Shown: positions 20,837-34,425 of the stretch, piece after piece
Position numbering within the stretch: position 1 is the first letter of the stretch
Layout: every line of letters starts with the position of its first letter
NCBI GenBank assembly: GCA_038064835.1
Contig: JBBTSD010000001.1
Coordinates: 234,361-298,360 of the forward strand
Origin: Patescibacteria group bacterium
Lineage (GTDB): Bacteria > Patescibacteriota > Minisyncoccia > Phycocordibacterales > UBA2100
Length of the DNA stretch: 64,000 bases
Direction of reading: 5' to 3'
Position numbers and translations under genes: made by a program
The notes under the pieces: generated by a model
The model's database searches: none
The model's input: the letters and a program-made list of their open reading frames with translations, nothing else
Told to the model about the DNA's origin: nothing

Positions 20837-23074
20837 CTAGTATTCCATCCCACCCCACTCAATCACACTGAATCCCGTGCGCGTGAATGACTGCAAATTT
20901 TGCGGAACAACCTCAGTGAATGTGTCGCGTGGCTTGAATGCCATGAATACACGCAGTACTGAGTCTGGTTGTGGCGAGATGGTGAGTGGAGCGCTCTCGG
21001 TGTATGCACTGCCAACAAAATGAATGAAGTTGTACGGATTATGTTGCATTTTCGGAAGCCAGAAAACGATGAATTCGTTATATTCGCGCGGAGTGAGTCC
21101 GAGTTTTGCAAGTGTGGTCTGTAGGAACGCACGCGTTTCGCTTCCTTTTACAACGAAGCCGTGGGTCTCGTCCACTCCGATGGGGTAGTGCGCCCCCTCC
21201 CAAAAGAGGTAGCTGTATTCGCGAGCGTTGCTTATGAGTGTGCCATCGGGATGTGCTGTAACGCGCCACCCCCCGATTGCGTCGTCGTATTCTGGATAGG
21301 TTGTGGAAAGTGTACCCTTGAATTGCAGGCCCACAGTCACTTCCTGCGTCTGTGTTGGATATAGATATATGACAGGTTTTAGAGCAATTGGGTAGGGATA
21401 TGGGTACGGAGTTCCCGTTTCAACTCTAGTCCACGCGCCATTGTCGCACTTATACCGGACAAGAATCCCTGGGCCGCAACCGACGACACACGCGACAGCA
21501 CTTGCTGCATTTGTGAGCACAAACGCCGCGGTACGGCTTCTTGAGTAGTCGACTCCCGATGATGATACAGGGCTGAAAGGAAGAATGGTGCCGTGGGGAT
21601 ATTCTTGGCCGTTAAAAGTACAGGCTAGGTCTGTTCTTAAAACACCAACGATTTGTATGCGCGCAGTTCGTGACAGTTGACTTCCCGGCGGGCCGTATGA
21701 AAGACGCAGTGTGTAGGGTATGGTTCCCTGTGCAGATGGATAGGTGTGTACATGCTCCTGCGCATCTGTGCTCGCGTTACAGCCTACCGTGGTGTGCGCA
21801 CGAGTGATTGGAGTGCTACCGTCGCCCCAATCAAGAGTAAATCCAGTGCACCCATTTTCAAGTGTGAAGCGGGCCTGGACTTGTCTCACCACACCGCCAA
21901 AGCCAGGAACAACAGACAAGTCATTCGCCGATGCAAATCCACTCGCGGCTTCACTCACTGATACGGTTTCTACTCTGGCTGCGTTGGTGTAGGCACCAAC
22001 CTGTGTCGTGGGGAGCGGATAGAGTTTGACAACTTTTGCACCCGGGGTGTCATAGCGATGGGTGATGCTAAATTCGGTTGGGCGACATGAGTCTCCTGGG
22101 TAAACCAAGGGAATTCGGTCGCCATCACCGAAATCCAGAGTATATTCGCCTCCGCCACACGATGCAGCTCCGTTGACGCGCACACTAAAGTTAACGGAGA
22201 GGGGTGCGACTCCTGACAGAGGAGAGGCAGTCAACGAGTCGGGAAAAATGGTTTTTGATTGTGTAGGTGGCGCATCTGCGACACGCACCGTGACGGCAGT
22301 TTTGTGCGCGCCAGATGATAGGGTTACCAGATAACTGCCCGGGAGTGCATAAGTATGAGCAATCGACTGAGTCATTTCGACACAGCGCGTTGCTGGGACC
22401 GACAGCTCGAATGGCGTAGTGCCGTCACCAAAATCAAGAAGATAGCTAGATCGTTCACATGAGCGCGAGGTATTTACCGTAGCAGTGGCGGTGACGGTGA
22501 GCGGTGCGCCGCCCGAGATGGGCTCTACCCGAATAAATGCGCCGACTTCTGTAGGGATGACAGAAGGACACCCTTCGGCAAGGGCCTTTCTGGTCCTCGG
22601 GCCGACACGGCCATAGCCAGTGCTCGTATATTCACCAACGGATACAATGCCACAGGAAACTTGGAAACGGCGAACGGCTGTTTCGGTGAGTGAGAGATAT
22701 CGTCCTGAGACGACACCTTCAGGATATATAGAGAAGTCTTGCGCCAAGAATGATTGAAGTCTCGCCACATCTTCTCCATTGCTTCCGCGGGCAATGTCAC
22801 GCGTTAGGAAAAGGCCACCGTGAAGCAGACTACCACTTTCTAAGTTTGTATTGGAACTTGAGGGGGTGTTTTTCAAATAGGGGGTAGTATTTGTGTTTGT
22901 CGGTTGCCCTCCCAAGTCGTTCTGAAGCATTTTGATTCGGTCGAGAAGTACTTTTATTTCTGATTCGAGTTCGGCTGAAGTTTGAGCGTGCGATATGAGT
23001 GGCAAGATGACCAGAGACAGGAGTAGTCCAACCACCACCTTCTGTACGCATATATGAGTAGTCATAGGCCTCAT
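20837..23074 (-). CDS. Large secreted protein with peptidoglycan-binding (PG_binding_1-like) domain and three PKD-like domains
   Basis: Signal peptide. ARLQSFLAQ...VRRFQ matches the PG-binding helix pair. DFGDGT, DFGDGD and DWGDGS are PKD signatures. It is convergent with rpoC. Confidence 0.7.
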   Translation of the reverse strand: MRPMTTHICVQKVVVGLLLSLVILPLISHAQTSAELESEIKVLLDRIKMLQNDLGGQPTNTNTTPYLKNTPSSSNTNLESGSLLHGGLFLTRDIARGSNGEDVARLQSFLAQDFSIYPEGVVSGRYLSLTETAVRRFQVSCGIVSVGEYTSTGYGRVGPRTRKALAEGCPSVIPTEVGAFIRVEPISGGAPLTVTATATVNTSRSCERSSYLLDFGDGTTPFELSVPATRCVEMTQSIAHTYALPGSYLVTLSSGAHKTAVTVRVADAPPTQSKTIFPDSLTASPLSGVAPLSVNFSVRVNGAASCGGGEYTLDFGDGDRIPLVYPGDSCRPTEFSITHRYDTPGAKVVKLYPLPTTQVGAYTNAARVETVSVSEAASGFASANDLSVVPGFGGVVRQVQARFTLENGCTGFTLDWGDGSTPITRAHTTVGCNASTDAQEHVHTYPSAQGTIPYTLRLSYGPPGSQLSRTARIQIVGVLRTDLACTFNGQEYPHGTILPFSPVSSSGVDYSRSRTAAFVLTNAASAVACVVGCGPGILVRYKCDNGAWTRVETGTPYPYPYPIALKPVIYLYPTQTQEVTVGLQFKGTLSTTYPEYDDAIGGWRVTAHPDGTLISNAREYSYLFWEGAHYPIGVDETHGFVVKGSETRAFLQTTLAKLGLTPREYNEFIVFWLPKMQHNPYNFIHFVGSAYTESAPLTISPQPDSVLRVFMAFKPRDTFTEVVPQNLQSFTRTGFSVIEWGGMEY

Positions 23075-23180: not shown

Positions 23181-24899
23181 ATGTCGGACACAGTAGAACA
23201 GATAAAGGCACGGCTTTCCATCGTGGATGTCGTGGCTCCTTATGTAAAGCTGGTCAGGGCGGCAGGCAATTACAAAGCACGGTGTCCCTTTCACTCAGAG
23301 CGAACCCCCTCCTTCACGCTTTCACCAGACAGGGGTACTTATCACTGTTTCGGCTGTAATGTGGGGGGCGATATGTTCTCTTTTGTGCAGGCAATAGAAG
23401 GAACTGACTTTAAGGGGGCACTGAAAATACTTGCAGACAAAGCAGGTGTTCCTCTGGTATATGGCCGTAGCGACAAGAAGGACCCAACTGACAAATTGTA
23501 CGCCGCACTCGAAGAGGCGTGCTTGTTTTCAGAAAATTTGCTCACTAAAACACATCCTGCGTATGCCTACCTTGAAAAACGCGGACTCACCGAAGAGACG
23601 ATACGGTCCTTCCGTATCGGATGGGTGCCGAACGAGTGGCGTGCGCTCGCGACTCATTTGCGCGCAAAAGGTTTTACTGATGCGGATATTGAATCTGCTG
23701 GATTGGGCAAACGAACCGATAAAGGCCTCTACGACAGATTTCGAAGTAGGATTATGTTTCCACTCTGTGATTCTGCCGGTCGGGTGGTGGGGTTTTCTGG
23801 TAGAATCTTTGCCGAATCGGGAGATGTTCCGGCGGATGCGCCAAAATATCTCAATAGCCCAGAGACTCCGCTCTATCATAAATCAAAAATTCTGTATGGA
23901 TTTGATCGGGCAAAACAACATATTCGGAAACTCACTTTCTCGATTCTTGTTGAAGGACAGATGGATTTGGTCTCAGTGCACCAGGCGGGGTGGAAAAATG
24001 CAGTGGCTGTGTCGGGAACGGCACTTACTGAAGATCATATAAACTTGCTTCGTAGGATGGCAGACAATGTAGTGCTTGCGCTTGATGCGGACAAGGCAGG
24101 AGTTGAGGCGGCGCGCAAAAGTGCGCTAATCGCGCTCGCTGCCGGTATGGATGTAAAAGTTGCGCTCCTTCCTGCAGGAAGCGATCCTGCAGATTTTATA
24201 CTTACAGAAGGGAAGGATGCTTGGCGCAGTAGGGTACGAGACGCAAAGCATGTTGTTGAGTTTCTATTGACTGCTCTGACGACACAGCATGACGAAGCAC
24301 GAGCATACGCAAAGGCCGTGCGCCAAGTAGTGCTCCCGTTTATCGCTATGATACAAAGCCCTATCGACCGTGATCATTTTGTGCGCATGGTTGCCGGTCG
24401 TTTGGGTGTCGGTGAAGACGCAGTGCGTGCGGAAGTGGGTGGTGTACCTAGCAGAGAGGGAACACCACCCCTCGCTACGACAGCTTCTGTGGTGGAAAAA
24501 AAAAGAGCGTCATCGCCACGACTGCGGCAGATCTATGGCATTGTGCTTTGGCAGGGGCAGGCAAAAGACCCTGTGTGGGACAAGGAAAGAATTGCGTCAG
24601 TGCTTAGTGAAAGTGTGGGTAGTGGTGCGCTGGACTCACTTAATACACTCGATGAAGCGGTGAAGGAGAAGTTGCGGTTTGAAGCAGAAGAGCAATTTGC
24701 GCATGTGAAAGATGTCGCACAGGCTATCGAATCACTATTCCGTCTGGTTCGGCTCGATAGATTGCGCCGAGAGCTTTCCGAAGTACGCGTGCGCCTTGCC
24801 GAGGCTGAACAGACTGCCGACGGAACCCTTTCCGATGAGATGCTCGCGTTATCCACAGTCTTGACAAATGATATTGCCAAGATTGAAAGAATGCGCTAA
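23181..24899 (+). CDS. dnaG: DNA primase
   Basis: CHC2 zinc finger [11 protein letters not shown]...[10 protein letters not shown]. Toprim LVEGQMD...LDADKAG. The first ATG with family-like [10 protein letters not shown] is at 23181. Confidence 0.9.
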
Positions 24900-24981
24900 T
24901 ATGTCCCACACAGGCGCCGTGAGAACGGCGCAGCTAATTTTGTATATAAAAGGGAAGAGAGGCTTTTTATCGTTACTTATC

Positions 24982-26226
24982 ATGGCAAAAAAGAAAAAAG
25001 GAAACACAAAAAAGGTGGTACTTCGCAAAAAAACGGCGAAGGTTGCGAAACTACCCAAGCCAAAAAAAGTCGTCTCAAAGCGTGCCCCCATCAAGACAGT
25101 TGTTCGCCCCCAGAAACCCGTCCCCAAGAAAAAGACCAGCAAGAAAATAGACGCCGAAGAAAAGAAGGCACTCACACTGCTCTCGCTTGGCAAAGAACGA
25201 GGATATGTAACCTACGATGAAATATTGCGCTCTTTTCCGACAATCGAAGAAAACATCCTCCTTCTCGAAGAGATGTACGAACGATTTGCAACTGCGGGTG
25301 TCGATGTACTCGAGACAGGTAGCATGCTCGACAATGCGCATGCAGATGAAGTTCTTGAACGCAAGAAATTGCATCGTCGTCGGAGTGATTCGTCGTACGA
25401 CTCAATTCAGATGTATCTCCGCGAGATTGGCCAGTACCCCCTGCTTAACGCTCAGCAAGAACGAGAGCTGGCACAGCGCATCGTGGCAGGTGATATGGAG
25501 GCCCAAAACATCCTCGCGCGCTCAAACCTCCGTCTCGTTGTTTCTATTGCAAAAAAATATGCCAACCGCTCTCCAGACCTGACTCTGCTTGATTTGATTC
25601 AAGAAGGGAACTTGGGTCTTGCCAAAGCGGTGGTTAAATTCGATTGGACCAAGGGATACAAGTTTTCTACCTACGCAACCTGGTGGATTCGCCAGGCTAT
25701 TACGCGCGCGCTTGCCGATCAATCGCGCACTATTCGTATCCCTGTGCACATGGTGGAGACAATCGCCAAATACAAGCAAAAGATGCGCGAGCTCTCTCAG
25801 CACCTGGGGCGCGACCCACTACCAGAGGAAGTTGCCTCAGAAATGGGTGTTGAAGTAGAGAAAATTTATACCATCCAAAAAATCAGCCAGGATACCGTTT
25901 CGCTCGAAACTCCTGTGGGAAGTGACGATGATGACAAATCGAGCCTTGGAAGCTTTGTTGCTGACGAGACCATCGAATCACCGGATCATGGGGCCTCGCA
26001 TCGTATTTTGAGTGAGCAGATTCAGTCGGTTCTCGATGAATTGTCACCGAAGGAGCGCAAGATTCTTGAGCTCCGTCATGGACTCACCGAAGAGGGGATT
26101 TGCTACACCCTCGAAGAGGTAGGACGCGAATTCGGCGTTACGCGCGAACGCATTCGCCAAATTGAAGCAAAAGCACTTGAAAAAATCCGCTCACACGGCC
26201 GTGCCAAACAACTTCGCAGTTACTAG
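24982..26226 (+). CDS. rpoD: RNA polymerase sigma factor, sigma-70 family, with lysine-rich N-terminal tail
   Basis: Region 2 ([29 protein letters not shown]) and region 4 ([21 protein letters not shown]) are present. It follows dnaG, as in the conserved macromolecular-synthesis operon. Confidence 0.9.
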
Positions 26227-26314
26227 TCAGCTTTAGGGACGAGCCCTCGCACCTACCTGTGCTGCTTTTGCATACGAGAAGATCAGACCTTCTCATTTCC
26301 GCAACCCCCTGCCC

Positions 26315-26355
26315 AAAACCCCATGTCGGACTTACGAAGTCCGACATGGGGTTTT
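26315..26355 (+). terminator. Strong rho-independent terminator after rpoD
   Basis: aaaaccccatgtcggac...gtccgacatggggtttt, a 16-bp stem with flanking A/T runs. Confidence 0.8.
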
Positions 26356-26437
26356 GGAGGGTGTGAGCAGTTACCTCCACAATTTTGCCAGAGAGTAGAC
26401 AATCCACTCGTTCAGGAGTAGATTTTCTGTTCGTCAT

Positions 26438-26974
26438 ATGTCCAGTGTTTTACGAGTTTTACGAAAAGTAGCCAGCGTTGGCACCCCCACCGAGCCTGCT
26501 CCCGAGGCTGTTTTCGTTGCAAAAGAGCTACCTGTAGGGGAGAACTTGCGCAAAGCCATTGAACAATTATATGGCGGACGGGCACTGCGTATTCGACATG
26601 TGGATGCAGGATCGAACAATGGAGAGGAATATGAAATGACGGCACTCAACAATGCCTTCTACGACATCGAACGATTCGGCCTTTCTTTCGTCGCGTCTCC
26701 TCGACATGCGGATGTGCTCACCGTTTCCGGTCCGGTGACGAGAAATATGGAACACGCCCTGCGGGTGTGTTATGAAATGACACCTGCTCCGAAAATAGTG
26801 ATTGCTGTGGGTGATGGTGCATGCACCGGCGGTATCTGGAAAGACTCCTATGCAGTTGTTGGCGCTGTCGAAAATGTCATTCCTGTTGATCTCAAAATAC
26901 CGGGTGATCCGCCATCACCCAACGAGATTCTTTCAGGGATTCTGCATGCGCTGACGCATGCGCGAGTTCGTTGA
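26438..26974 (+). CDS. NuoB / group-4 hydrogenase small-subunit homolog lacking 3 of 4 Fe-S cysteine ligands (EhrS-like)
   Basis: It aligns to NuoB: RHVDAGSNNGEEYE replaces the CCxxE motif, IAVGDGACTGG replaces GSCAxSGG, and IPGDPP replaces GCPP. The conserved DIERFG and RHADVL regions are retained. Confidence 0.75.
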   Translation: MSSVLRVLRKVASVGTPTEPAPEAVFVAKELPVGENLRKAIEQLYGGRALRIRHVDAGSNNGEEYEMTALNNAFYDIERFGLSFVASPRHADVLTVSGPVTRNMEHALRVCYEMTPAPKIVIAVGDGACTGGIWKDSYAVVGAVENVIPVDLKIPGDPPSPNEILSGILHALTHARVR

Positions 26975-28940
26975 TATTTCTATGGGCTTACTTACTGAAC
27001 TTTTGGTGATTACTGGGTGCGCCGCACCATGTGTCGCGGGTTTTGTGGTTCTCCTTGCCCCGCACCGGAACACGGTCATGCAATCAGTGCTTGTTCTCGG
27101 TTCTCTCGCCGGCTTTTGCGGGACCATCCTTTCGTTCTTTATTGAGAATCCAATTTTCGCGTTGCTCGCACCATACACTATGGTTGACGCGGTGTCTTTG
27201 TTCTTTCTGTTGCTTGTTTTTGCAGGAACGGGCATCACCTCGTTTTTTGCCATCGCGTATGTACCACTATACAAGTATGCATTTCCCGCATCACGCGTGA
27301 ACGGAGCAACAGCATTTTTTGTGACCGGTATGCTGGGTGTTGTAGTTGCAGGGAGCGTTCCGCTGTTCCTTTTCTTTTGGGAAGTAATGTCTATAGCAGC
27401 ATACTTTCTGGTAGTTTCTGATCGTTCGGCAGAATCTATTAAGGCCGGACTCATTTACTTCGTCATGACCCATCTGGGGCTTGTTTCACTCCTTGGTGGA
27501 TTTGCGCTGATTGCGCCCGACTCGATTTTTGCTACCTGGCAAGATGTGGTAATTGCCGCGGGCGGAGCGTCCTACTGGTCGTTGGCGTTTGCCTTCGCGC
27601 TTTTCTGCATTGGATTTGGGTCAAAGGCTGGAATAGTGCCATTTCACGCATGGCTTCCGTATGCTCATCCGCAAGCTCCAAGTCACTCATCCGCACTTCT
27701 CTCTGGCGTTATGCTTCCTGTCGCTGTGTTTGGTTTTATTCGCATCAGCTCGCTATTTCCCTTTATCCCATTTGAATGGGCGTGCATGGTGATTGCGGCA
27801 GGACTCCTCTCCGCCTTCTTCGGGTCACTGCACGCCGCTGTCGAAAAAGATATGAAAAGACTGCTTGCCTATTCGTCAATTGAGCACATGGGGCTGATCT
27901 TTACCGGCATAGGCGTTCTATTGGTCTTGAAAACCGCACCACATGAAATTGCGGGGCCACTCATCGAGGGGGTTTCATTGTTCATAGCGCTTCATCTCGT
28001 CAATCATATGTTTTTCAAGGCAGGGCTTTTTATGTCTGCTGGTATCGTCGCCGCTAAGACACACACACGAAACCTGGATGAGTTGGGAGGTCTCGCAAAA
28101 CGCTGGCCTCTCTTTTCTGGGGGCGTTTTGCTCCTCTCGCTTTCGGCAGCAGCTCTTCCGCCTCTCGGTACTTTTTTTGGTGAGTGGGCTTTGATGCAAT
28201 CACTCGCACTCGGTATTGCTCAGCTACCTTTGCTTTTTGCGGGCGTTCTTTCCATTGTGCTTATGGTTGTCGCGCTCGCTGCTGGTCTTGCGCTCCTGGC
28301 ATCAATCAAATTGTTTAGTGTTGCATTCTTGGGACGAGCGCGTACAGAAAAAGCGGCGCATGTTGAGTCCTTGCCGTGGTCTTTGATGCTGGCTCCTCTG
28401 TTCTGTGCGGTGGGAGGGGTTCTTACTGCATTTATTGCCGTTCCATTTTTTGCGGCCCACACAATGCGGGGGGCAAACATTGTGTTTTCAGACATTAGTC
28501 TTGCCCCGACTGCCAGCGTAAATGTATGGGCGACTGCTGCCACGGTCCTCGTATTGGCCGGTCTCATACTGCTAGTGAGACGCTTGTTTGGTGCAGAAAA
28601 AGTTCGTATCACGGCAACATGGGATTGTGGTGCGCCACTCACGCCACGGATGCAATACACTGCAACAGGATTTGCAGGACCCGTTCGCTTCTTTTTTCGC
28701 CCGTTTCTCTTTTTAAAGAAAACACTCACCGTGACCCCGCTTGCAGGACATTCGTGGATTGCGAGTCGCGTGCTCATTTCAGAAGTAGGATCTGTCTGGG
28801 AGCGATGGGTGTACCAGCCTGTTGCGGATAGTGTGCTTTCAGTCGCGTCGTATGCAGCGCGTATACAAAGCGGAATAGTTCAGGTATATATTCTCATAAT
28901 TTTTGTGACCCTGGTTGCAACACTTACGCTCGCCATATGA
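26958..28940 (+). CDS. NuoL/MnhA-like antiporter-type membrane subunit (HyfB/EhrA-like)
   Basis: 660 aa, about 16 TM segments. WLPYAHPQAPSHSSALLSGV matches the NuoL/M/N signature [22 protein letters not shown]. The start overlaps the stop of the preceding gene. Confidence 0.75.
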   Translation: MREFVDISMGLLTELLVITGCAAPCVAGFVVLLAPHRNTVMQSVLVLGSLAGFCGTILSFFIENPIFALLAPYTMVDAVSLFFLLLVFAGTGITSFFAIAYVPLYKYAFPASRVNGATAFFVTGMLGVVVAGSVPLFLFFWEVMSIAAYFLVVSDRSAESIKAGLIYFVMTHLGLVSLLGGFALIAPDSIFATWQDVVIAAGGASYWSLAFAFALFCIGFGSKAGIVPFHAWLPYAHPQAPSHSSALLSGVMLPVAVFGFIRISSLFPFIPFEWACMVIAAGLLSAFFGSLHAAVEKDMKRLLAYSSIEHMGLIFTGIGVLLVLKTAPHEIAGPLIEGVSLFIALHLVNHMFFKAGLFMSAGIVAAKTHTRNLDELGGLAKRWPLFSGGVLLLSLSAAALPPLGTFFGEWALMQSLALGIAQLPLLFAGVLSIVLMVVALAAGLALLASIKLFSVAFLGRARTEKAAHVESLPWSLMLAPLFCAVGGVLTAFIAVPFFAAHTMRGANIVFSDISLAPTASVNVWATAATVLVLAGLILLVRRLFGAEKVRITATWDCGAPLTPRMQYTATGFAGPVRFFFRPFLFLKKTLTVTPLAGHSWIASRVLISEVGSVWERWVYQPVADSVLSVASYAARIQSGIVQVYILIIFVTLVATLTLAI

Positions 28941-29872
28941 CACTTCTTTTCGCATGTATAAATACCATAGTGATTGTTGCGATCGCCCCACTGACCATTG
29001 GTATAATCCGGAAAGGAAAGGCATATTTGCAGAATAGAAGAGGAGCATCAATTTTTCTCCCATACCTGCAAATTGCGTCACTTATGCGCAAGGAGATGAC
29101 TATAACGGAACATAGCTCATGGGTCTTTCGTAGTGTCCCGTTCGTTGTGCTTGCTAGCGCACTTTTTATAACTATCGCTATTCCTGCGGTGGTTATCGGA
29201 GTGATGCCCAGTGCCCTCACTAATATATTTGTGGTTGTGGGTGCGCTTGCGTTTGGTGCGGTTTTTCTCGTGATGGGCGGAATGGATACCGCTAGCACAT
29301 TTGGCAACATGGGATCCAGTCGAGAAATGACATTATCCGCTCTCGTAGAGCCCGTGATTGTTATCACCCTCTCCACACTTGCACTTCTGGCGGGGAGTTG
29401 GGGAGTGGACGGTATTCTTACAAACGCAGTTTTGAATCCATGGGCAGATGGTGGGGCATTCGCACTCACGCTTTGCGCGCTTCTGTTGATTACACTTCTT
29501 GAAAATGCTCGTTATCCAGTCGACAACCCTGCAACCCATCTCGAGCTGACCATGGTGCATGAGGCAATGATTTTAGAGTACTCGGGCCCGTATCTCGCGC
29601 TACTTGAATATGCAGCGGCAATCAAGCTTACAGTGATGGCTGTTTTTGTAGCAAACCTTGCGCTGCCATACGGACTGGTGGTGGCACCAGTATCGCTTGT
29701 AGGCATTCTGGTGGGCATCAGTTTGTTCTGCGGGAAGGTCGGACTTGCTGCCTTGGTGATTGCGCTAGTAGAGACCCTGGTTGTAAAAATGCGTTTCTAT
29801 CGAATGCAAGAGTATGTGTTACTCTCGCTTGCATTTGCCCTCGCTGGCTTGAGTGTTGCTCTACTCACCTAA
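28937..29872 (+). CDS. NuoH/HycD-like membrane subunit (EhrB-like)
   Basis: 311 aa. IRKGKAYLQNRRGASIFLPYLQ resembles the N-terminal loop motif of the NuoH/HycD family. ATGA start/stop overlap. Confidence 0.65.
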   Translation: MTLLFACINTIVIVAIAPLTIGIIRKGKAYLQNRRGASIFLPYLQIASLMRKEMTITEHSSWVFRSVPFVVLASALFITIAIPAVVIGVMPSALTNIFVVVGALAFGAVFLVMGGMDTASTFGNMGSSREMTLSALVEPVIVITLSTLALLAGSWGVDGILTNAVLNPWADGGAFALTLCALLLITLLENARYPVDNPATHLELTMVHEAMILEYSGPYLALLEYAAAIKLTVMAVFVANLALPYGLVVAPVSLVGILVGISLFCGKVGLAALVIALVETLVVKMRFYRMQEYVLLSLAFALAGLSVALLT

Positions 29873-29880
29873 TACATAGT

Positions 29881-30528
29881 ATGACTTCACTATCAGATAT
29901 AATTGTTATTTTTTCAGGCGGTATCTTGCTGGTGTCATTTTTCATGGTAAGCAGGATGCGCCTGAGGACAATGGTTTCTTTGTTCCGTGCGCAGTCTCTC
30001 TTGCTCGCTGGGTACACCAGTGTACTCGCACTTATTCTGGACGAGCCTGCCATGCTCATACCCGCCGGATTGATATTTGTTGCGAAAGTATTCGCCGTGC
30101 CTTACTTGATTCGTTCGTCCAGTAGGCGGATGAACGCTTCAGAGCGCCTCTCCTCCTTCTTGCGTCCTACAGGGTTATCAATTGCGGCACTTGTTTTAAT
30201 TAGCGGAGCTTTTCTCGTCGCACAATCACTGCCGTTCACTACATCAGAGCAGGGGATTGTGGGTACCGCTTTTGCTCTTATTGCACTCGGGTTTCTTCTG
30301 CTTGTAACACGCACAGATATGTATGGGCAGACGCTCGGTTTTCTGACGCTCGAAAATGGCATTTTTGCTTTCGGGCTTTCGCTCACCCATGGTATGCCGT
30401 TACTTGTCGAGCTCGGCGTTGTATTCGATGTTATGGTTGCATTCCTTCTGATGACGGCACTGTTGGCGAGAGCCCAAAAAGAATACCGATCAGTAGGTAC
30501 TGAAAACTTACGCGAGCTTATCGGCTAA
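29881..30528 (+). CDS. Small polytopic membrane subunit (HyfE/EhrC-like)
   Basis: 215 aa with about 6 TM segments. The size and operon position correspond to HyfE. Confidence 0.45.
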   Translation: MTSLSDIIVIFSGGILLVSFFMVSRMRLRTMVSLFRAQSLLLAGYTSVLALILDEPAMLIPAGLIFVAKVFAVPYLIRSSSRRMNASERLSSFLRPTGLSIAALVLISGAFLVAQSLPFTTSEQGIVGTAFALIALGFLLLVTRTDMYGQTLGFLTLENGIFAFGLSLTHGMPLLVELGVVFDVMVAFLLMTALLARAQKEYRSVGTENLRELIG

Positions 30529-30536
30529 TTACTTGT

Positions 30537-32015
30537 ATGCTTCCTTCTCTCCTACTGCTCTCATCTTTGGCAAGTGGCGTGCTGGTATTTATAGTGCGGC
30601 CCGATCGATTTGTGTGGGGGGTTGCTTTTCTCGGCTCATGCATTGCTCTGGGGTTTGGAGTTTTTGTTGGAGTCATTGCGATCACTGGTGGTGGGATTTT
30701 TGGAGGGGGTGCATGGTACCTCAATGGGATCACCGGCGTTATGGTGGTCTTGATAGCAGTGATTCAATTCACTGCGACACTCGTGAGTATTTCACATCTC
30801 TCACATGAAGTGCATCACCAGGTGGTGACAGTGGCGCAGGCGCGCCGTTACTTTGCACTCCTGTCACTCTTCACTCTTTCTATGTTTGCTAGCGTGATGG
30901 CCAACAACCTGGGCATTCTGTGGGTTGCTCTGGAAGCAACGACCCTCGCAACCACGCTTCTTGTCGCATTCTATGCCCGTCCAGGATCACTGGAGGCCGC
31001 GTGGAAGTATCTCACGCTCTGTTCTGTAGGAATTGCTATCGGACTCTTGGGTCTTTTTGTGGCCTACTATGCTGCCTATGTTGCCCATGTGGGCGATCGC
31101 CTCACCAGTATCCAGTGGACAACATTGTTCGAAAACGCACACCTCCTTTCTCCCGAACTTATGCAGTTTGCATTTGTCCTTGTGCTCATCGGTTATGGCA
31201 CTAAGGCGGGATTTGCGCCAATGCACGCATGGCTTCCCGATGCACATTCTCGCGCCCCTGCGCCTATCTCAGCACTTCTTTCCGGAGTGCTTTTACCTGT
31301 TGCTTTTTTTGCAGTGATTCGTTTCAAGGCAATCGTTGATGGAGCGATGGGTGGAAGCGAATGGAGCAGCAGCCTCCTTATCATCTTTGGTGTGTTTTCT
31401 ATAGTAGTTAGCGCGATTTTTATCGTGCGGCAAAGTGATTACAAACGACTGCTTGCCTATTCATCGATCGAACATATGGGTATTGCGGCGTGTGCTTTTG
31501 CACTTGGTGCCTTCGGATCGGTTATTGGTCTAGTGCACATTGTCGGGCACGCTCTCATCAAGTCCGCCTTGTTCTTTGGTGCGGGCGAATTGTTCCTTCG
31601 TTTCAAAACAACGCTCTGTTCCCGTGTTGGTTTTATTTCAGAAACACTTCCACTGACCGCGACATCATTCACTATCGCTCTAGGTGCGTTACTGGCTATC
31701 CCCCCGTCTCCTCTTTTCTTTACTGAGTATCAGCTCGTGTTGTATGGCATGCGCTTTGAGCCGCTTTCTATTTCGCTCCTGCTTGTTGCTTTGGTGGTTA
31801 CCGCGGCTGGCTTCATGAGAACTGTGGTGCCTCTTTTAGTGGCACCAGCGACTGCTGTTGAAACACATGAAGTCCCCAAGGGTGAGTTCTGGACATTGGC
31901 TCATGTAGCAGTGTATGTGCACTTGCTGCTTGCCGTTATGTTGGGTGTTATGGTATGGACGCCACAAGGCCTGGCCTTTTTTGCGCATATTAGTATGGTG
32001 TCACCACACATATGA
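30537..32015 (+). CDS. NuoM/N-like antiporter-type membrane subunit (HyfF/EhrD-like)
   Basis: GYGTKAGFAPMHAWLPDAHSRAPAPISALLSGV is the canonical antiporter-subunit motif. 492 aa. Confidence 0.75.
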   Translation: MLPSLLLLSSLASGVLVFIVRPDRFVWGVAFLGSCIALGFGVFVGVIAITGGGIFGGGAWYLNGITGVMVVLIAVIQFTATLVSISHLSHEVHHQVVTVAQARRYFALLSLFTLSMFASVMANNLGILWVALEATTLATTLLVAFYARPGSLEAAWKYLTLCSVGIAIGLLGLFVAYYAAYVAHVGDRLTSIQWTTLFENAHLLSPELMQFAFVLVLIGYGTKAGFAPMHAWLPDAHSRAPAPISALLSGVLLPVAFFAVIRFKAIVDGAMGGSEWSSSLLIIFGVFSIVVSAIFIVRQSDYKRLLAYSSIEHMGIAACAFALGAFGSVIGLVHIVGHALIKSALFFGAGELFLRFKTTLCSRVGFISETLPLTATSFTIALGALLAIPPSPLFFTEYQLVLYGMRFEPLSISLLLVALVVTAAGFMRTVVPLLVAPATAVETHEVPKGEFWTLAHVAVYVHLLLAVMLGVMVWTPQGLAFFAHISMVSPHI

Positions 32016-33550
32016 CCCTTTCATTATTGCGCGAACAAATAGGTGTGGCACAAGGGTCGAACGATCTTGTTTCGATTGCCAGAGCCGAGTTTCGTACTAT
32101 GGCCGTGCGTTGTGTGCAGGCGGGTGCGCCACTGGTGTTTATGTACGCGCTTGACGAGCGATCGACGCGTCGTGTGTTTGTTGTGCGTGCAGTGTTTTCT
32201 GTGCCTGGATCGGGATTCCTCACCCTCACCGTCGATGTTCCTGAGCAAGAGTTATCCTACCCGTCTCTAACTACGGAAATCATGGCCGCCCACTGGTTCG
32301 AACGGCTTATCTTCGATCAGTATGGTCTAGTGGCTGAAGAGCATCCAGATTGGAGGCGACTCATGCATCATGAAAATATTCCTGCACATGTGTACCCGTT
32401 GCGCAAGGATTTTGCGTGGAACACCAAGCTTCCTTATGCGAGCGAACCATATCCCATGCACGCGGTGCAGGGCGATGGTATCTATGAAATCCCTGTGGGA
32501 CCAATTCACGCAGGAATTATTGAGCCAGGTCACTTTCGTTTCAATGTACGAGGTGAGAGAATCGTCACACTCGAAGGAAAGTTGTTTTTCAAACATAAAG
32601 GAGTAGAAAAACTAGTCGAAGGAAAAACCCCTGCAGAGGCACTGCCTTTTATTGAACGGGTGTCCGGTGACATGGTAGTGGCACATACACTTGCGTTTGC
32701 AGAAGCAGTTGAGCACGCATCCGGCATGTCAATAAGTGCGCGTGCTGATTCGTTGCGTATGCTGTGGCTCGAAATGGAGCGACTCACGGCTCATATCTTT
32801 GACATTGGCAACATGGGGGGTATGGGGACTGGATTTACTTTCATGGCGGCGCAGTGTTTTCGTGTAGTTGAGGAGTTACGACGCATGCACTATGCAATTG
32901 TTGGGCATCGATATCTCCGGGGTGCAATCACGCTTGGCGGCGCTCACGATATTAGTCAAAAGAATAGAGAAGATCTCGATGCGTTACTGACAAAGGTTGA
33001 AACCGAGCTCGAGACGCTTTGCGGGATTGCGTATGCGAATGATGGCCTCATGGAACGATTTGAAACAACCGGGGTTCTTTCTCGTGCTGCAGCGATTGCC
33101 TACGGTGCGCGTGGAGTGCCGGCCAGAGCATCTGGTGTTACTAGTGACATGCGTCGCGATCATCCGTCAGGTGCTTATACTCGCATCCCGGTAACGGTTG
33201 CTACCAAGACTTCTGGGGATGTGCGCGCACGGTTTTCGGTCCGTGTCCTTGAATGTGCAGAATCTCTTCGTTTGGCTCGTCTCTGTTTGACGCAACTGCC
33301 ACAAGGACCGGCATATACAAAGTTTTCGGTGCATGCAGGAAGTTCGCTTGGATGGGCTGAAAGTTTCCGTGGAGCAGTCATTGATTGGGTACGCATTGAC
33401 ACATCGGGAAAGTTGGATCGTGTAGCGATATCCGATCCGTCATTCTGTAACTGGTCACTGTTCGGAGAAATTGGCCCCGGCAACATCGTCCCCGATTTTC
33501 CTTTGTGTAACAAAAGCCTTAACCTGTCGTACTCAGGAACCGATCTGTAG
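32012..33550 (+). CDS. Fused NuoC-NuoD / hydrogenase large-subunit homolog without Ni-Fe binding cysteines (EhrL-like)
   Basis: N-terminal NuoC-like region, then a NuoD/HycE-like region (GPIHAGIIEPGHFRF). No N-terminal CxxC is present. The C-terminal motif is DPSFCNW instead of DPCxxCxxH. ATGA overlap with the upstream gene. Confidence 0.75.
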   Translation: MTLSLLREQIGVAQGSNDLVSIARAEFRTMAVRCVQAGAPLVFMYALDERSTRRVFVVRAVFSVPGSGFLTLTVDVPEQELSYPSLTTEIMAAHWFERLIFDQYGLVAEEHPDWRRLMHHENIPAHVYPLRKDFAWNTKLPYASEPYPMHAVQGDGIYEIPVGPIHAGIIEPGHFRFNVRGERIVTLEGKLFFKHKGVEKLVEGKTPAEALPFIERVSGDMVVAHTLAFAEAVEHASGMSISARADSLRMLWLEMERLTAHIFDIGNMGGMGTGFTFMAAQCFRVVEELRRMHYAIVGHRYLRGAITLGGAHDISQKNREDLDALLTKVETELETLCGIAYANDGLMERFETTGVLSRAAAIAYGARGVPARASGVTSDMRRDHPSGAYTRIPVTVATKTSGDVRARFSVRVLECAESLRLARLCLTQLPQGPAYTKFSVHAGSSLGWAESFRGAVIDWVRIDTSGKLDRVAISDPSFCNWSLFGEIGPGNIVPDFPLCNKSLNLSYSGTDL

Positions 33551-33600
33551 AATTCGGTCACATCTTCCAAAAAAGAAGTCCGCACTAATGCGGACTTTTG

Positions 33601-34290
33601 CTAACTAAGAAGTCGTTGGCGAATGACCGCCATAGCTTCTTTGCACATATGGGCATGAGAGAGAGCAGCGTTCAACATGTGCGGAACCTTCTGTCCGTGC
33701 CCGGGGTCGAAGTACGCGTCAATAATGGCCTCTTCTTTTTCGATAAAACTGTGGCAAGCATCTTTGCCCATCCCGACCAGCACAGAAGAGGCAAGATAAC
33801 AGCTAACAACTTCACTGTCCGCTCGGGTAATGAAATACTCGGGCGGCTCGATTCCCTGCTCTTTGATGCGCGCGGCCACAATACCGTGGTGCATTGAAAG
33901 GACTTCGTTGTCCACACTTTCGCAATCAACGCATGCGGTTGCGTAGAGAACGGCGTTAAGCCCATAGCCGTCAGTAATTACGACATCATGTGCCGCGAGC
34001 GCTGGCTTCAAGTGTCGCGCATTGAATTCATTCAGGTGCGCCCAACATTTGAATAGGCGCGTTACAGGGTGCTGTGTTCGCTCACTTTCAGCCCATAAAA
34101 GTGGGTGTGGCAGTTTCCCAAACGGGTCCTCCAGGAAGGCACATGAATGTTGAGGAAATGTGATTGGCACCGTGCGCTTGAGTCCTTTGAATACCTCTGT
34201 TCGTCCGCTTCCTCGCATTCCTGAAACGGAAAAGAAATGGACTTTCTTGGCAGACTGGCTCTGCTGTTTCTGTGCTGTGCTTTCGTGCAT
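33601..34290 (-). CDS. Thymidylate-kinase-like protein with atypical P-loop (GSGRTE, Lys to Arg)
   Basis: Aligns to dTMP kinase: VSGMRGSGRTE versus EGxDGxGKTT, IKPALAAHDVVITDGYG versus IKPAL....VIxDRY, and a LID-like region. The track start is TTG 34344; the first ATG is 34290. Confidence 0.5.
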   Translation of the reverse strand: MHESTAQKQQSQSAKKVHFFSVSGMRGSGRTEVFKGLKRTVPITFPQHSCAFLEDPFGKLPHPLLWAESERTQHPVTRLFKCWAHLNEFNARHLKPALAAHDVVITDGYGLNAVLYATACVDCESVDNEVLSMHHGIVAARIKEQGIEPPEYFITRADSEVVSCYLASSVLVGMGKDACHSFIEKEEAIIDAYFDPGHGQKVPHMLNAALSHAHMCKEAMAVIRQRLLS

Positions 34291-34425
34291 GTAACCCTCT
34301 TTCAGTGCGGTCGCTATGGTACTCCGGGCATTGCTAGTTTTCAAATGATCTTTGTGTTATGGAAACAAGAAAAAGAAGGGCGCGAGCCTCACTTTTTGGA
34401 GCACTCTCTATGGTATAGTGCCCCC

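What the first reader, a model, noticed from the sequence alone, without database searches (positions are those of the whole stretch)
26438..26974. NuoB-like small subunit has lost three of the four N2 [4Fe-4S] cysteine ligands
Aligning the 178-aa protein to NuoB/hydrogenase small subunits gives RHVDAGSNNGEEYE where CCxxE is expected, IAVGDGACTGG where GSCAxSGG is expected (one Cys retained), and IPGDPP where IPGCPP is expected. With only one ligand left, a cubane cluster cannot be bound. The subunit that normally hands electrons to quinone or the Ni-Fe site is therefore probably redox-inert. The rest of the fold is well conserved (DIERFGL, SPRHADVLTV, PVTRNMEHALR), which argues against a decaying pseudogene. 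This suggests the complex has been repurposed, for example as a pure ion translocator or scaffold.
Basis: seen in the sequence. Interest (0 to 1): 0.72.

Follow-up and report, generated by a model that had tools for sequence, protein, structure and literature searches.

The report
Cofactor-free complex-I-like machine in CPR bacteria
A tiny uncultivated bacterium keeps, under strong selection, a six-gene relative of respiratory complex I and membrane hydrogenases that has lost every ligand for its metal centres, so it probably moves ions without any electron transfer; related genomes place it directly after the ATP synthase genes, often with a carbonic anhydrase gene.

Summary
The ORF at 26438-26974 is a real NuoB/HyfI-type small subunit (Pfam PF01058). 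It is the first gene of an intact six-gene operon, HyfI-B-C-E-F-G-like, at 26438-33550, in a Patescibacteria (CPR) genome. All four [4Fe-4S] ligand positions are non-Cys: N60, E63, G127 and D157. The "retained" Cys129 lies two residues after the ligand position and varies among orthologs.

The large subunit has also lost all four Ni-Fe cysteines, and no ferredoxin-type subunit is encoded. No ligand set for any canonical redox centre remains.

This is not decay. All 63 CPR loci examined keep the operon, dN/dS is about 0.01-0.16, and the two cofactor-less peripheral subunits are the best-conserved proteins. The proton-pathway Lys/Glu residues of the membrane subunits are kept.

The nearest non-CPR Ehr relatives keep the four small-subunit Cys. 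Other lineages, such as Chloroflexota, appear to have lost them independently.

In a large CPR subclade, which does not include this window's lineage, the operon directly follows the F1Fo ATP synthase operon. A CsoSCA-type carbonic anhydrase gene often abuts it.

Best reading: a redox-free variant of Ehr that works on the ion gradient. CPR Ehr is published. I did not find the Fe-S loss or the synteny in the searchable literature.

The parts
26312..26357 (+). Long perfect hairpin after the upstream rpoD-like gene. It is a likely terminator that separates the operon from upstream transcription.
   Evidence: Read directly in the sequence: CCCAAAACCCCATGTCGGACTT-ACGA-AGTCCGACATGGGGTTTTGG. rpoD-like ORF 24868-26226.
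26396..26424 (+). Weak sigma-70-like promoter match (TAGACA-17-TAGATT) 14 nt upstream of the small-subunit start codon.
   Evidence: The match is 9/12, and the number of such sites in the region is not above the shuffled expectation, so this is only a candidate.
26438..26974 (+). Small subunit (NuoB/HyfI/MbhJ/EhrS-like), 178 aa. All four [4Fe-4S] ligand positions are substituted: N60, E63, G127, D157. Cys129 is non-ligand and variable.
   Evidence: Pfam PF01058. PDB alignments. Family alignments. AF2 model and fold search. dN/dS.
26958..28940 (+). HyfB/NuoL-like antiporter-type membrane subunit, 660 aa. E142, K223, H350, K354 and E409 are conserved. This genome has Pro254 where the family has the TM8 Lys.
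   Evidence: PF00361. Best E. coli match HyfB, 1e-74. Residue conservation.
28937..29872 (+). HyfC/NuoH-like membrane subunit, 311 aa. This is the subunit that joins the peripheral arm to the membrane arm. R129, E138, D196, E203, E209, E214 and R286 are conserved.
   Evidence: PF00146. HyfC 1e-35..
29881..30528 (+). HyfE-like small membrane subunit, 215 aa. E158 and E177 are conserved.
   Evidence: No Pfam hit. NCBIfam NF008556 'hydrogenase 4 membrane subunit' at 6e-20, below the curated cut-off. HyfE 5e-19..
30537..32015 (+). HyfF/NuoM-N-like antiporter-type membrane subunit, 492 aa. E133, K223, H338, K342 and E397 are conserved.
   Evidence: PF00361. HyfF 1e-85..
32012..33550 (+). Large subunit (fused NuoC+NuoD / HyfG / EhrL-like), 512 aa. 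All four Ni-Fe cysteines are replaced: S218, M221, S506, G509. The equivalent of complex I Nqo4 Asp139 is Gly272.
   Evidence: PF00329 + PF00346. Motif alignment with HyfG/NuoCD and 70 relatives. Coordinates.
33576..33597 (-). GC-rich hairpin with a T-run 26 nt after the large-subunit stop. It lies between the operon and the convergent ORF 33601-34344 and is a likely terminator region.
   Evidence: The site was scored on the minus strand. The stem is palindromic, so it could act for both converging transcripts (inference).

Best explanation
The 178-aa protein is the small subunit of a CPR-specific form of the Ehr (energy-converting-hydrogenase-related) complex. Ehr is a six-subunit relative of hydrogenase-4/FHL, MBH and complex I.

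In this CPR form, every canonical redox-centre ligand has been lost:
- the proximal [4Fe-4S] of the small subunit (ligand positions now N/T, E, G, D);
- the Ni-Fe site of the large subunit;
- the two-cluster ferredoxin subunit, whose gene is absent.

The fold, the subunit set and the charged residues of the membrane ion pathways are all preserved under strong purifying selection.

I therefore read the small subunit as a cluster-free structural and coupling element, with polar and acidic side chains filling the former cubane pocket. The whole complex would be a non-redox machine coupled to the ion gradient. Most simply this is an Mrp-like cation/proton exchanger or proton conduit, in which the B/CD/H 'elbow' is kept because it gates or caps the entry to the membrane-arm ion path. 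It would work on the proton gradient that the F1Fo ATPase makes or uses.

Shown here: loss of the ligands, conservation, selection, operon composition and synteny in relatives. Inferred: absence of any other cofactor, ion translocation, its direction and its ion specificity.
For: **Ligand loss**
- Small subunit.
- Large subunit.
- The operon is a one-to-one match to HyfI, B, C, E, F, G, with HyfA, HyfD and HyfH missing.

**Function retained**
- All 63 CPR loci keep the operon.
- dN/dS is 0.01-0.11 for close pairs, with synonymous turnover at E63, G127 and D157.
- Mean pairwise identity within CPR is B 66% and CD 58%, against 37-51% for the membrane subunits. The cofactor-less arm is the most constrained part.
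- The model has pLDDT 84.7, and its best structural match is MbhJ at TM 0.84.

**Ion machinery kept**
- The equivalents of NuoM E144, K234 and E407 are invariant in both antiporter-like subunits.
- The equivalents of NuoH R148, E157, D213, E220 and E228 are invariant.

**Redox reading further weakened in the CPR clade**
- The Asp equivalent to Nqo4 D139 is kept in 16/16 non-CPR relatives but is Gly in 56/56 CPR sequences.

**Link to the chemiosmotic circuit**
- atpF-H-A-G-D-C lies directly upstream on the same strand in 33 related CPR loci, with atpC-to-ehrB gaps as short as 21-181 nt.

**The cluster is dispensable in this family**
- Cys-less small subunits recur in other lineages. Their nearest neighbours keep the four Cys at 75-84% identity.
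Against: - No experiment exists on any member. 'Ion translocator' rests only on conserved residues and gene neighbourhood.
- A purely passive antiporter does not obviously need a 690-aa peripheral arm held at 58-66% identity. Such strong constraint suggests the arm does something specific, such as binding a ligand or a partner.
- The window's own lineage lacks the ATP-synthase neighbour. No atp gene lies within 64 kb.
- This genome has Pro in place of the family's TM8 Lys in the HyfB-like subunit.
- The AF2 model is least confident (pLDDT 49-64) at residues 61-80, just after ex-ligand positions 60 and 63. The state of the former pocket is therefore unknown.
- A non-canonical cofactor, such as a mononuclear metal on E63/D126/D157, cannot be excluded from sequence.
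Confidence: 0.6

Rival explanations
1. The complex is an energy-coupled (vectorial) carbonic anhydrase. A soluble CsoSCA-type beta-CA would dock on the cofactor-free complex, and proton movement through the antiporter-like subunits would drive one-way CO2 hydration. The gradient would be supplied by the neighbouring F1Fo ATPase. DAB and cyanobacterial NDH-1MS/CupA work this way.
For: - A CsoSCA-type CA homologue abuts the operon in 17 of 45 loci of one CPR subclade. It has an invariant C-x-D-x-R motif plus His and Cys. Its profile matches PDB 2fgy at E=7.5e-17, and Pfam PF20686 hits 8/13 members.
- Its position varies: between atpC and ehrB, just after the large-subunit gene, or on the opposite strand. 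The CA sequences are only 15-39% identical. This argues for a maintained association rather than a single inherited accident.
- There is precedent. Complex-I-type proton subunits drive beta-CA-like partners in DAB (PMC13144422; 10.1101/476713).
Against: - No CA-like gene lies in the 64-kb window or within 10 kb of the operon in the window's subclade, L001-L018. At least two thirds of CPR loci lack it nearby.
- The CA-like proteins have no membrane helix, unlike DabA2.
- Nothing shows physical association.
- A free CA next to a pH or ion-homeostasis system would give the same synteny.
Confidence: 0.17
2. The complex is still a redox enzyme. It would use a non-canonical centre, such as a cluster or mononuclear metal ligated by Asp/Glu, Cys129 and the CPR-specific Cys479 of the large subunit. 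Alternatively, it would use an electron-input protein encoded elsewhere.
For: - Acidic or polar residues recur at the ex-ligand positions in several independent Cys-less lineages (NEGD, DAAD, DVDD, DADN, SAES). That is what a cation site would look like.
- The large subunit has a CPR-specific Cys479 in 52/56 sequences.
- The very high conservation of the peripheral arm would suit a catalytic role.
Against: - Cys129 is replaced by I, V or A in 9 of 64 CPR sequences.
- No [4Fe-4S] is known with one Cys and three carboxylate ligands (my own knowledge).
- There is no acceptor site. The Ni-Fe Cys are gone, and the complex I quinone residues His/Tyr are Ile/Gly.
- No ferredoxin, flavoprotein or dehydrogenase gene is conserved next to the operon in 63 loci.
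Confidence: 0.1
3. The complex is a decaying or vestigial remnant. The operon would be on its way out of a reduced genome, or only the membrane subunits would still work while the peripheral arm is dead weight.
For: - CPR genomes are reductive.
- This genome has lost the family's TM8 Lys/Asn (now Pro) in both antiporter-like subunits.
- Distribution across CPR is patchy (PMC7304191).
Against: - There are no frameshifts or stops in any of the six genes here.
- The 45 CPR loci with all six genes show no decay.
- dN/dS is about 0.1.
- The peripheral subunits are the most conserved, not the least.
- Overlapping start and stop codons are maintained.
Confidence: 0.03

Closest known systems
Ehr, energy-converting (Ech) hydrogenase-related complex (Geobacter sulfurreducens EhrA-D/L/S; Coppi 2005 and Marreiros et al. 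2013 as cited in PMC7894505 and PMC6349859). The CPR Ehr clade is from Jaffe et al. 2020 (PMC7304191).
   Same: - Same subunit set: NuoL-like, NuoH-like, HyfE-like, NuoN-like, large and small subunits.
- The large subunit lacks the Ni-Fe cysteines.
- The function of Ehr is unknown.
- The sequences come from CPR, where a monophyletic Ehr clade without metal-binding Cys in the large subunit is published.
   Different: - The nearest non-CPR Ehr-type operons found here keep all four small-subunit Cys and have the order L-H-E-N-CD-B, which matches EhrA-B-C-D-L-S. They come from Methanomassiliicoccales and proteobacterial MAGs, L064-L080.
- The CPR form has lost all four small-subunit Cys, has moved the small-subunit gene to the front, and has lost the Nqo4-D139-like Asp.
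- I found no paper describing the Fe-S loss. The two founding Ehr papers could not be read.
E. coli hydrogenase-4 (Hyf) and formate hydrogenlyase (PDB 7z0s)
   Same: Each of the six proteins has its best E. coli match in HyfI, B, C, E, F and G. HycG is the top Foldseek hit by E-value.
   Different: Hyf/FHL has the Ni-Fe site, the proximal cluster, HyfH/HycF and HyfA/HycB ferredoxins, HyfD and a formate dehydrogenase partner. None of these is present here.
Pyrococcus furiosus membrane-bound hydrogenase MBH (PDB 6cfw), subunit MbhJ
   Same: Best sequence match among solved structures (E=4e-30). Best superposition: TM 0.84, rmsd 2.3 A, 42% identity.
   Different: MbhJ carries the CxxC...C...C ligands of the proximal cluster. 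MBH also has an Mrp-type Na+ module that is absent here.
Mrp-type multisubunit cation/proton antiporters
   Same: Both are non-redox. Both use MrpA/MrpD-type subunits with the same Glu/Lys pattern as the two antiporter-like subunits here. This is the closest functional analogy for a redox-free complex.
   Different: Mrp has no NuoB, NuoC, NuoD or NuoH homologues and has MrpB, E, F and G, which are absent here. The comparison rests on my knowledge of the family.
DAB (DabA/DabB) and cyanobacterial NDH-1MS CupA: PMF- or redox-driven vectorial carbonic anhydrases (PMC13144422; 10.1101/476713)
   Same: In both, a complex-I-type proton-conducting subunit is paired with a beta-CA-fold protein. In 17 related CPR loci a beta-CA (CsoSCA-type) gene abuts the operon.
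   Different: The partner is CsoSCA-like, not DabA (no PF10070 hit), and is soluble. The complex keeps a whole peripheral arm. No CA gene lies near the operon in this window.

Membership tests
Oxidored_q6 fold family (NuoB / hydrogenase small subunit, PF01058) | Sequence match above the Pfam gathering score, and the flavodoxin-like NuoB fold. | tested here: met
   95.7 bits against a cut-off of 27. The model superposes on MbhJ, HycG and NDUFS7.
Functional NuoB / group-4 hydrogenase small subunit | Four Cys ligands of the proximal (N2-type) [4Fe-4S] cluster. | tested here: not met
   The ligand positions are N60, E63, G127 and D157. NCBIfam NuoB models all score below their cut-offs, the best being 113.7 against 116.
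Group 4 [NiFe]-hydrogenase | Large-subunit L1 (RxCGxCxxxH) and L2 (DPCxxC) cysteine motifs. | tested here: not met
   The motifs read RVSGDMVVAH and NLSYSG. All four Cys are replaced, in this window and in all 70 relatives.
Group 4 [NiFe]-hydrogenase | HycF/HyfH/NuoI-type 2x[4Fe-4S] subunit in the module. | tested here: not met
   No such gene lies in the operon or its flanks in the window. None appears in the 63 CPR loci.
Ehr (energy-converting hydrogenase-related complex) | Group-4-hydrogenase-like large subunit that lacks the Ni/Fe-coordinating residues (definition quoted in PMC6349859). | tested here: met
Ehr (energy-converting hydrogenase-related complex) | Cluster encoding NuoL-like, NuoH-like, HyfE-like and NuoN-like membrane subunits plus large and small subunits (Geobacter EhrA-D/L/S names in PMC7894505). 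| tested here: met
   The gene order differs, with the small subunit first.
Ehr (energy-converting hydrogenase-related complex) | Placement of the large subunit inside the published Ehr / CPR-Ehr clade on a reference hydrogenase tree. | not tested
   No reference tree was built. Membership is inferred from the CPR origin, the motif loss, and the statement in PMC7304191.
Respiratory complex I (NDH-1) | Quinone-site His and Tyr of NuoD (Nqo4 H38/Y87), and subunits NuoA, J, K and I. | tested here: not met
   The equivalents are I170 and G219. No NuoA, NuoJ or NuoI genes are present.
Mrp cation/proton antiporter | Full MrpA-G subunit set without a peripheral arm. | tested here: not met
   Only MrpA/D-type domains (PF00361) are present, and NuoB/C/D/H homologues are present. 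All Mrp NCBIfam models score far below their cut-offs.
Mrp cation/proton antiporter | Conserved TM5 Glu, TM7 Lys and TM12 Glu/Lys of the antiporter-like subunits. | tested here: met
   E142/K223/E409 and E133/K223/E397 are invariant across the family.
DAB / Cup-type vectorial carbonic anhydrase | Beta-CA-fold partner encoded with, and bound to, the proton-conducting subunit. | tested here: inconclusive
   No CA-like gene is in the window. A CsoSCA-type gene is adjacent in 17 related loci. Binding is not testable here.

The most novel reading that the evidence does not exclude
The CPR Ehr-type complex would be a third, independent recruitment of complex-I machinery for non-redox work. The proton gradient made by the co-encoded F1Fo ATPase would be fed through a cofactor-free but mechanically intact 'Q-module plus membrane arm'. 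This would drive a soluble CsoSCA-type carbonic anhydrase, or in other lineages the unknown Cys/His protein that occupies the same atpC-ehrB slot. The result would be vectorial CO2 hydration or bicarbonate handling in organisms that have no respiratory chain.

If so, it would also be a natural 'redox-deleted' complex I in which the coupling between peripheral arm and membrane arm can be studied without electron transfer.
Probability: 0.18. Interest if true: 0.88.

Novelty: new variant of a known kind. Interest (0 to 1): 0.7.

Why it matters
**Complex I mechanism.** How chemistry in the peripheral arm is transmitted to the proton-pumping membrane arm is a long-standing open question for complex I and its hydrogenase relatives. 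Here nature has removed every canonical redox centre, yet keeps the NuoB/NuoCD/NuoH 'elbow' more conserved than the pumps themselves. Either the elbow has a mechanical or gating role that does not depend on electrons, or it has acquired a new ligand. Both readings can be tested on a small six-subunit complex.

**CPR bioenergetics.** CPR bacteria are thought to lack electron transport chains, and the use of their ATP synthase is debated. An atp-(carbonic anhydrase)-ehr gene arrangement conserved across many CPR lineages points to a defined chemiosmotic circuit.

**Annotation.** These genes are currently named 'hydrogenase' or 'NADH-quinone oxidoreductase subunit B' in databases. The sequence evidence does not support either name, and metabolic reconstructions that count them as H2 or NADH metabolism are likely wrong.

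Tried and rejected
- **Founding Ehr papers.** Marreiros 2013 and Coppi 2005 are not held. I cannot exclude that they mention Cys-less small subunits. Ten literature searches found no statement on Fe-S loss in CPR Ehr or on atp/CA synteny.
- **Alternative ligation through Cys129.** Rejected. The residue varies within CPR and is a non-ligand position in Cys-containing relatives.
- **ATP synthase or CA-like genes in the window.** tblastn found none in 64 kb. The other window ORFs I scanned are housekeeping genes: DsbA-like, BacA, ClpP, HisRS, PGM and others.
- **The ~210-aa ORF family between atpC and ehrB (alignment A3).** I suspected a degenerate beta-CA because of its C-x-D...H-x-P-C motifs. 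hhalign against the CA-like family was not significant (probability 0.5%). There was no PDB hit and no Pfam hit. It is left as unknown.
- **Promoter and terminator scan.** Counts are not above the shuffled expectation, so this gives only weak candidates.
- **Side-chain content of the old cluster pocket.** The AF2 monomer cannot answer this. Only summary confidence is returned, and the adjoining residues 61-80 are the least confident. A multimer or paired-MSA prediction was not possible with the allowed inputs.
- **NCBIfam.** No model passes its curated cut-off for any of the six proteins.
- **Na+ versus H+ specificity.** The neighbouring c-subunits lack the Gln/Ser/Thr Na+ signature as I remember it from Ilyobacter tartaricus. 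This is a memory-based reading and carries little weight.
Full report
**1. What is at the coordinates**

It matches Pfam PF01058 (Oxidored_q6, the NuoB / hydrogenase small-subunit family) at 95.7 bits. Among solved structures, its best matches are MbhJ of the Pyrococcus membrane-bound hydrogenase (6cfw_J, E=4e-30) and HycG of E. coli formate hydrogenlyase (7z0s_G). A long list of complex I NDUFS7/NuoB chains follows.

An identical protein is in public databases as 'MAG: hydrogenase [Patescibacteria group bacterium]'. The closest relatives are from Kaiserbacteria/Paceibacterota-type CPR genomes.

**2. The ligand positions**

Ungapped alignments were made to MbhJ and HycG, to E. coli HyfI and NuoB fetched from MG1655, and to 18 close relatives that keep the cluster motifs. 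They give an unambiguous register:

| Motif in relatives | Motif in the window | Substitution |
|---|---|---|
| DAGSCN[GA]CE | DAGSNNGEE | ligand 1 -> N60, ligand 2 -> E63 |
| G[ADSV]C..GG | GDGACTGG | ligand 3 -> G127 |
| PGCPP | PGDPP | ligand 4 -> D157 |

E63, G127 and D157 correspond to HyfI C47, C111 and C141, and to NuoB C64, C129 and C158.

- The same +2 position is also Cys in many relatives that keep the true ligand, for example GDCACNGG. It is Cys in 34 of 90 Cys-complete representatives.
- It is I, V or A in 9 of 64 CPR sequences.

So all four ligands are gone. The only other Cys, C111, is Ala in most orthologs.

**3. The rest of the complex**

The gene is the first of six tightly packed, partly overlapping genes spanning 26438-33550. 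Their best E. coli matches are, one to one, HyfI, HyfB, HyfC, HyfE, HyfF and HyfG.

The ferredoxin-type subunits HyfA and HyfH (NuoI-like), and HyfD, are absent.

The large subunit has replaced all four Ni-Fe cysteines:
- RVCGICGFAH has become RVSGDMVVAH.
- DPCYSC has become NLSYSG.

The His and Tyr that bind quinone in complex I are Ile and Gly. No canonical site for a redox cofactor is left anywhere in the six proteins.

**4. Family and relatives**

A scan of one genome per species returned 80 related loci.
- **L001-L063 are CPR.** All complete ones carry the same six genes in the same order, small subunit first.
- **L064-L080 are non-CPR.** They come from Methanomassiliicoccales and a few proteobacterial MAGs. 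They carry the order L-H-E-N-CD-B, which is the order of the Geobacter ehrA-D/L/S cluster as named in PMC7894505. These relatives also lack the Ni-Fe cysteines but keep all four small-subunit cysteines.

The family is therefore Ehr, defined as a relative of group-4 hydrogenases without the Ni/Fe ligands (PMC6349859). Jaffe et al. 2020 already reported a monophyletic CPR clade of Ehr large subunits lacking the metal-binding cysteines. They concluded that these proteins 'likely cannot interact with H2' (PMC7304191).

What that paper does not mention, and what I could not find elsewhere, is that the CPR clade has also lost the small-subunit cluster. One CPR locus looks transitional: L058 (Peribacteria) keeps ligand 1 and has Asn at ligand 4.

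**5. Not decay**

- No frameshifts or stops were seen. The 45 CPR loci with all six genes gave alignable full-length products.
- For the small subunit, Nei-Gojobori dN/dS is 0.013-0.11 for the three closest pairs. The median is 0.16 over 41 pairs with unsaturated dS.
- The replacement residues are held through synonymous change: GAA/GAG at E63, all four Gly codons at G127, and GAT/GAC at D157.
- Within CPR the two cofactor-less peripheral proteins are the most conserved. Mean pairwise identity is 66% for the small subunit and 58% for the large subunit, against 51, 46, 44 and 37% for the four membrane subunits.
- An AlphaFold2 model built from 46 orthologs has mean pLDDT 84.7. It superposes on MbhJ at TM 0.84 and rmsd 2.3 A.
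- The least confident stretch is residues 61-80, next to ex-ligand positions 60 and 63. The content of the old pocket is therefore unresolved.

**6. The membrane part looks functional**

- Both antiporter-like subunits keep the residues equivalent to NuoM E144 (TM5), K234 (TM7) and E407 (TM12), plus the His/Lys of TM11.
- The NuoH-like subunit keeps the equivalents of NuoH R148, E157, D213, E220 and E228.
- The HyfE-like subunit keeps two membrane Glu.

All are at or near 100% across the CPR and non-CPR members.

There is one local oddity. In this genome and its closest relative, L001, the TM8 position is Pro in both antiporter-like subunits. The family has Lys there in the HyfB-like protein (equivalent to NuoM K265) and Asn in the HyfF-like protein.

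**7. Changes specific to the CPR clade**

Besides the four ex-ligand positions, the small subunit has CPR-specific R51, T68, S83 and W134. The large subunit has about 35 CPR-specific fixed residues. One of these is Gly272, where all 16 non-CPR relatives and E. coli NuoCD have the Asp that corresponds to Nqo4 D139. The former active-site region has thus been remodelled and then frozen.

**8. The loss is recurrent in the wider family**

An exhaustive HMMER search of 1.8 billion cluster representatives gave 150 best hits. Of these, 90 have all four Cys. About 20 full-length ones have at most one, with patterns such as NEGD, DAAD, DADN, DVDD, DIDD, SAES and ECED.
- Named members come from Chloroflexota/Dehalococcoidia.
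- One Chloroflexota contig has the same small-subunit-first six-gene order (L083).
- Several Cys-less representatives have a Cys-complete nearest neighbour at 75-84% core identity. A crude NJ tree splits the Cys-less sequences into about 11 separate clades.
- Some versions carry a fused, degenerate HyfH-like ferredoxin domain. A Cys-complete near neighbour is preceded by an intact ferredoxin gene.

Acidic or polar residues at the ex-ligand positions are the common theme. This could mean a cation site or a hydrated, charged pocket, but that is inference.

**9. Gene neighbourhood in relatives**

In the L019-L063 subclade (labelled Uhr-, Moran-, Falkow- and Peregrinibacteria and others), the F1Fo genes atpF-H-A-G-D-C lie directly upstream on the same strand in 33 loci. 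Their identity was Pfam-verified in L023. The atpC-to-small-subunit gap is often only 21-181 nt.

In 17 loci a soluble 340-420-aa protein abuts the operon.
- It lies between atpC and the small-subunit gene in seven loci, right after the large-subunit gene in two, and elsewhere within about 1.4 kb in the rest.
- It has an invariant C-x-D-x-R motif plus His and Cys.
- It hits Pfam CsoSCA_cat in 8 of 13 members.
- As a profile it matches the carboxysomal carbonic anhydrase structure 2fgy at E=7.5e-17.
- It has no membrane segment.

In about ten other loci the same slot holds an unrelated conserved ~210-aa Cys/His protein with no detectable homologue.

None of this is found near the operon in the window's own subclade, nor anywhere in the 64-kb window. 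There the upstream neighbours are rpoC, dnaG and rpoD. The downstream UvrD-like helicase is shared with 16 other loci.

**10. Mechanism**

Shown:
- ligand loss in both peripheral subunits;
- absence of ferredoxin subunits;
- purifying selection;
- conserved ion-path residues;
- synteny with ATP synthase and a beta-CA in relatives.

Inferred: the complex carries no redox chemistry and works on the ion gradient. The simplest version is an Mrp-like cation/proton exchanger or gated proton path. The NuoB/NuoCD/NuoH elbow would be kept as the cap or gate of the entry to the membrane-arm channel.

The very strong constraint on the elbow, together with the recurrent CA neighbour, keeps open a more specific reading. 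In that reading the complex is a PMF-driven vectorial carbonic anhydrase of the DAB/CupA type (PMC13144422; 10.1101/476713). I give this about 0.17-0.18. A cryptic non-canonical redox centre (about 0.1) and decay (about 0.03) are less likely, for the reasons listed under the rival explanations.

**11. Novelty and verdict**

Ehr complexes, and the CPR Ehr clade without Ni-Fe ligands, are known. New relative to the searchable literature:
- complete loss of the small-subunit cluster across the CPR clade;
- its recurrence in other lineages;
- the conserved atp-(CA)-ehr arrangement.

The two founding Ehr papers could not be read, which is a caveat. I file this as a new variant of a known kind.

Noticed in passing
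Related loci L019-L063, e.g. L023:4617-9724 upstream of L023:9902-10438: The F1Fo ATP synthase genes atpF-H-A-G-D-C lie directly upstream, on the same strand, of the Cys-less ehr-like operon in 33 CPR loci. Gaps are as short as 21-181 nt. This is absent from the window and from its subclade L001-L018.
   Followed up: yes
Related loci, e.g. L024:8830-9888, L028:8757-9779, L031:17190-18293, L052:17573-18721: A soluble CsoSCA-type beta-carbonic anhydrase homologue abuts the operon in 17 CPR loci, often between atpC and the small-subunit gene. It has an invariant CxDxR motif plus His and Cys, and its profile matches PDB 2fgy at E=7.5e-17.
   Followed up: yes
Related loci, e.g. L033:9157-9798, L048:9160-9795, L041:9088-9864 (alignment A3): A different conserved ~210-aa protein fills the same atpC-ehrB slot in about ten loci. 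Its invariant residues are C42, D44, Q47, H117-x-P-C120 and H158. It has no Pfam hit, no PDB hit, and no significant profile match to the CA-like family.
   Followed up: partly
window 27717-27719 and 31296-31298: Both antiporter-like subunits of this genome have Pro at the TM8 position. The family has Lys there in the HyfB-like subunit (equivalent to NuoM K265, 56/61) and Asn in the HyfF-like subunit (52/56). Only the closest relative, L001, shares the deviation.
   Followed up: partly
window 32825-32827 (large subunit G272): The Asp equivalent to complex I Nqo4 D139 / NuoCD D325 is kept in all 16 non-CPR Ehr relatives. It is Gly in all 56 CPR sequences, next to a one-residue insertion.
   Followed up: yes
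Proteins P0121, P0153, P0154, P0179, P0208, P0242, P0151; loci L083, L085: Cys-less small subunits also occur outside CPR, in Chloroflexota/Dehalococcoidia and in unnamed metagenome contigs. Their ligand-position patterns differ, and some are fused to a degenerate HyfH-like ferredoxin domain. Their nearest neighbours keep four Cys at up to 84% identity, which suggests repeated independent loss.
   Followed up: partly
L058:6593-7195: A Peribacteria-labelled locus looks like an intermediate state: ligand 1 is still Cys, ligand 2 is Glu, ligand 3 is Gly and ligand 4 is Asn.
   Followed up: no
window 26312-26357: A 20-22-bp perfect hairpin lies between the rpoD-like gene and the operon. The terminator scan did not report it, because it lacks the required T-run directly after the stem.
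   Followed up: no
window 33601-34344 (-): A convergent 247-aa ORF just after the operon has no Pfam or NCBIfam match. A similar ORF follows the operon in about seven Kaiserbacteria-type loci. The UvrD-like helicase further downstream is shared with 16 loci.
   Followed up: no
window 20837-23074 (-): A 745-aa ORF with an N-terminal hydrophobic segment and repeated 'LDFGDG...' modules lies between rpoC and dnaG. It is probably a secreted repeat protein. It was not analysed.
   Followed up: no
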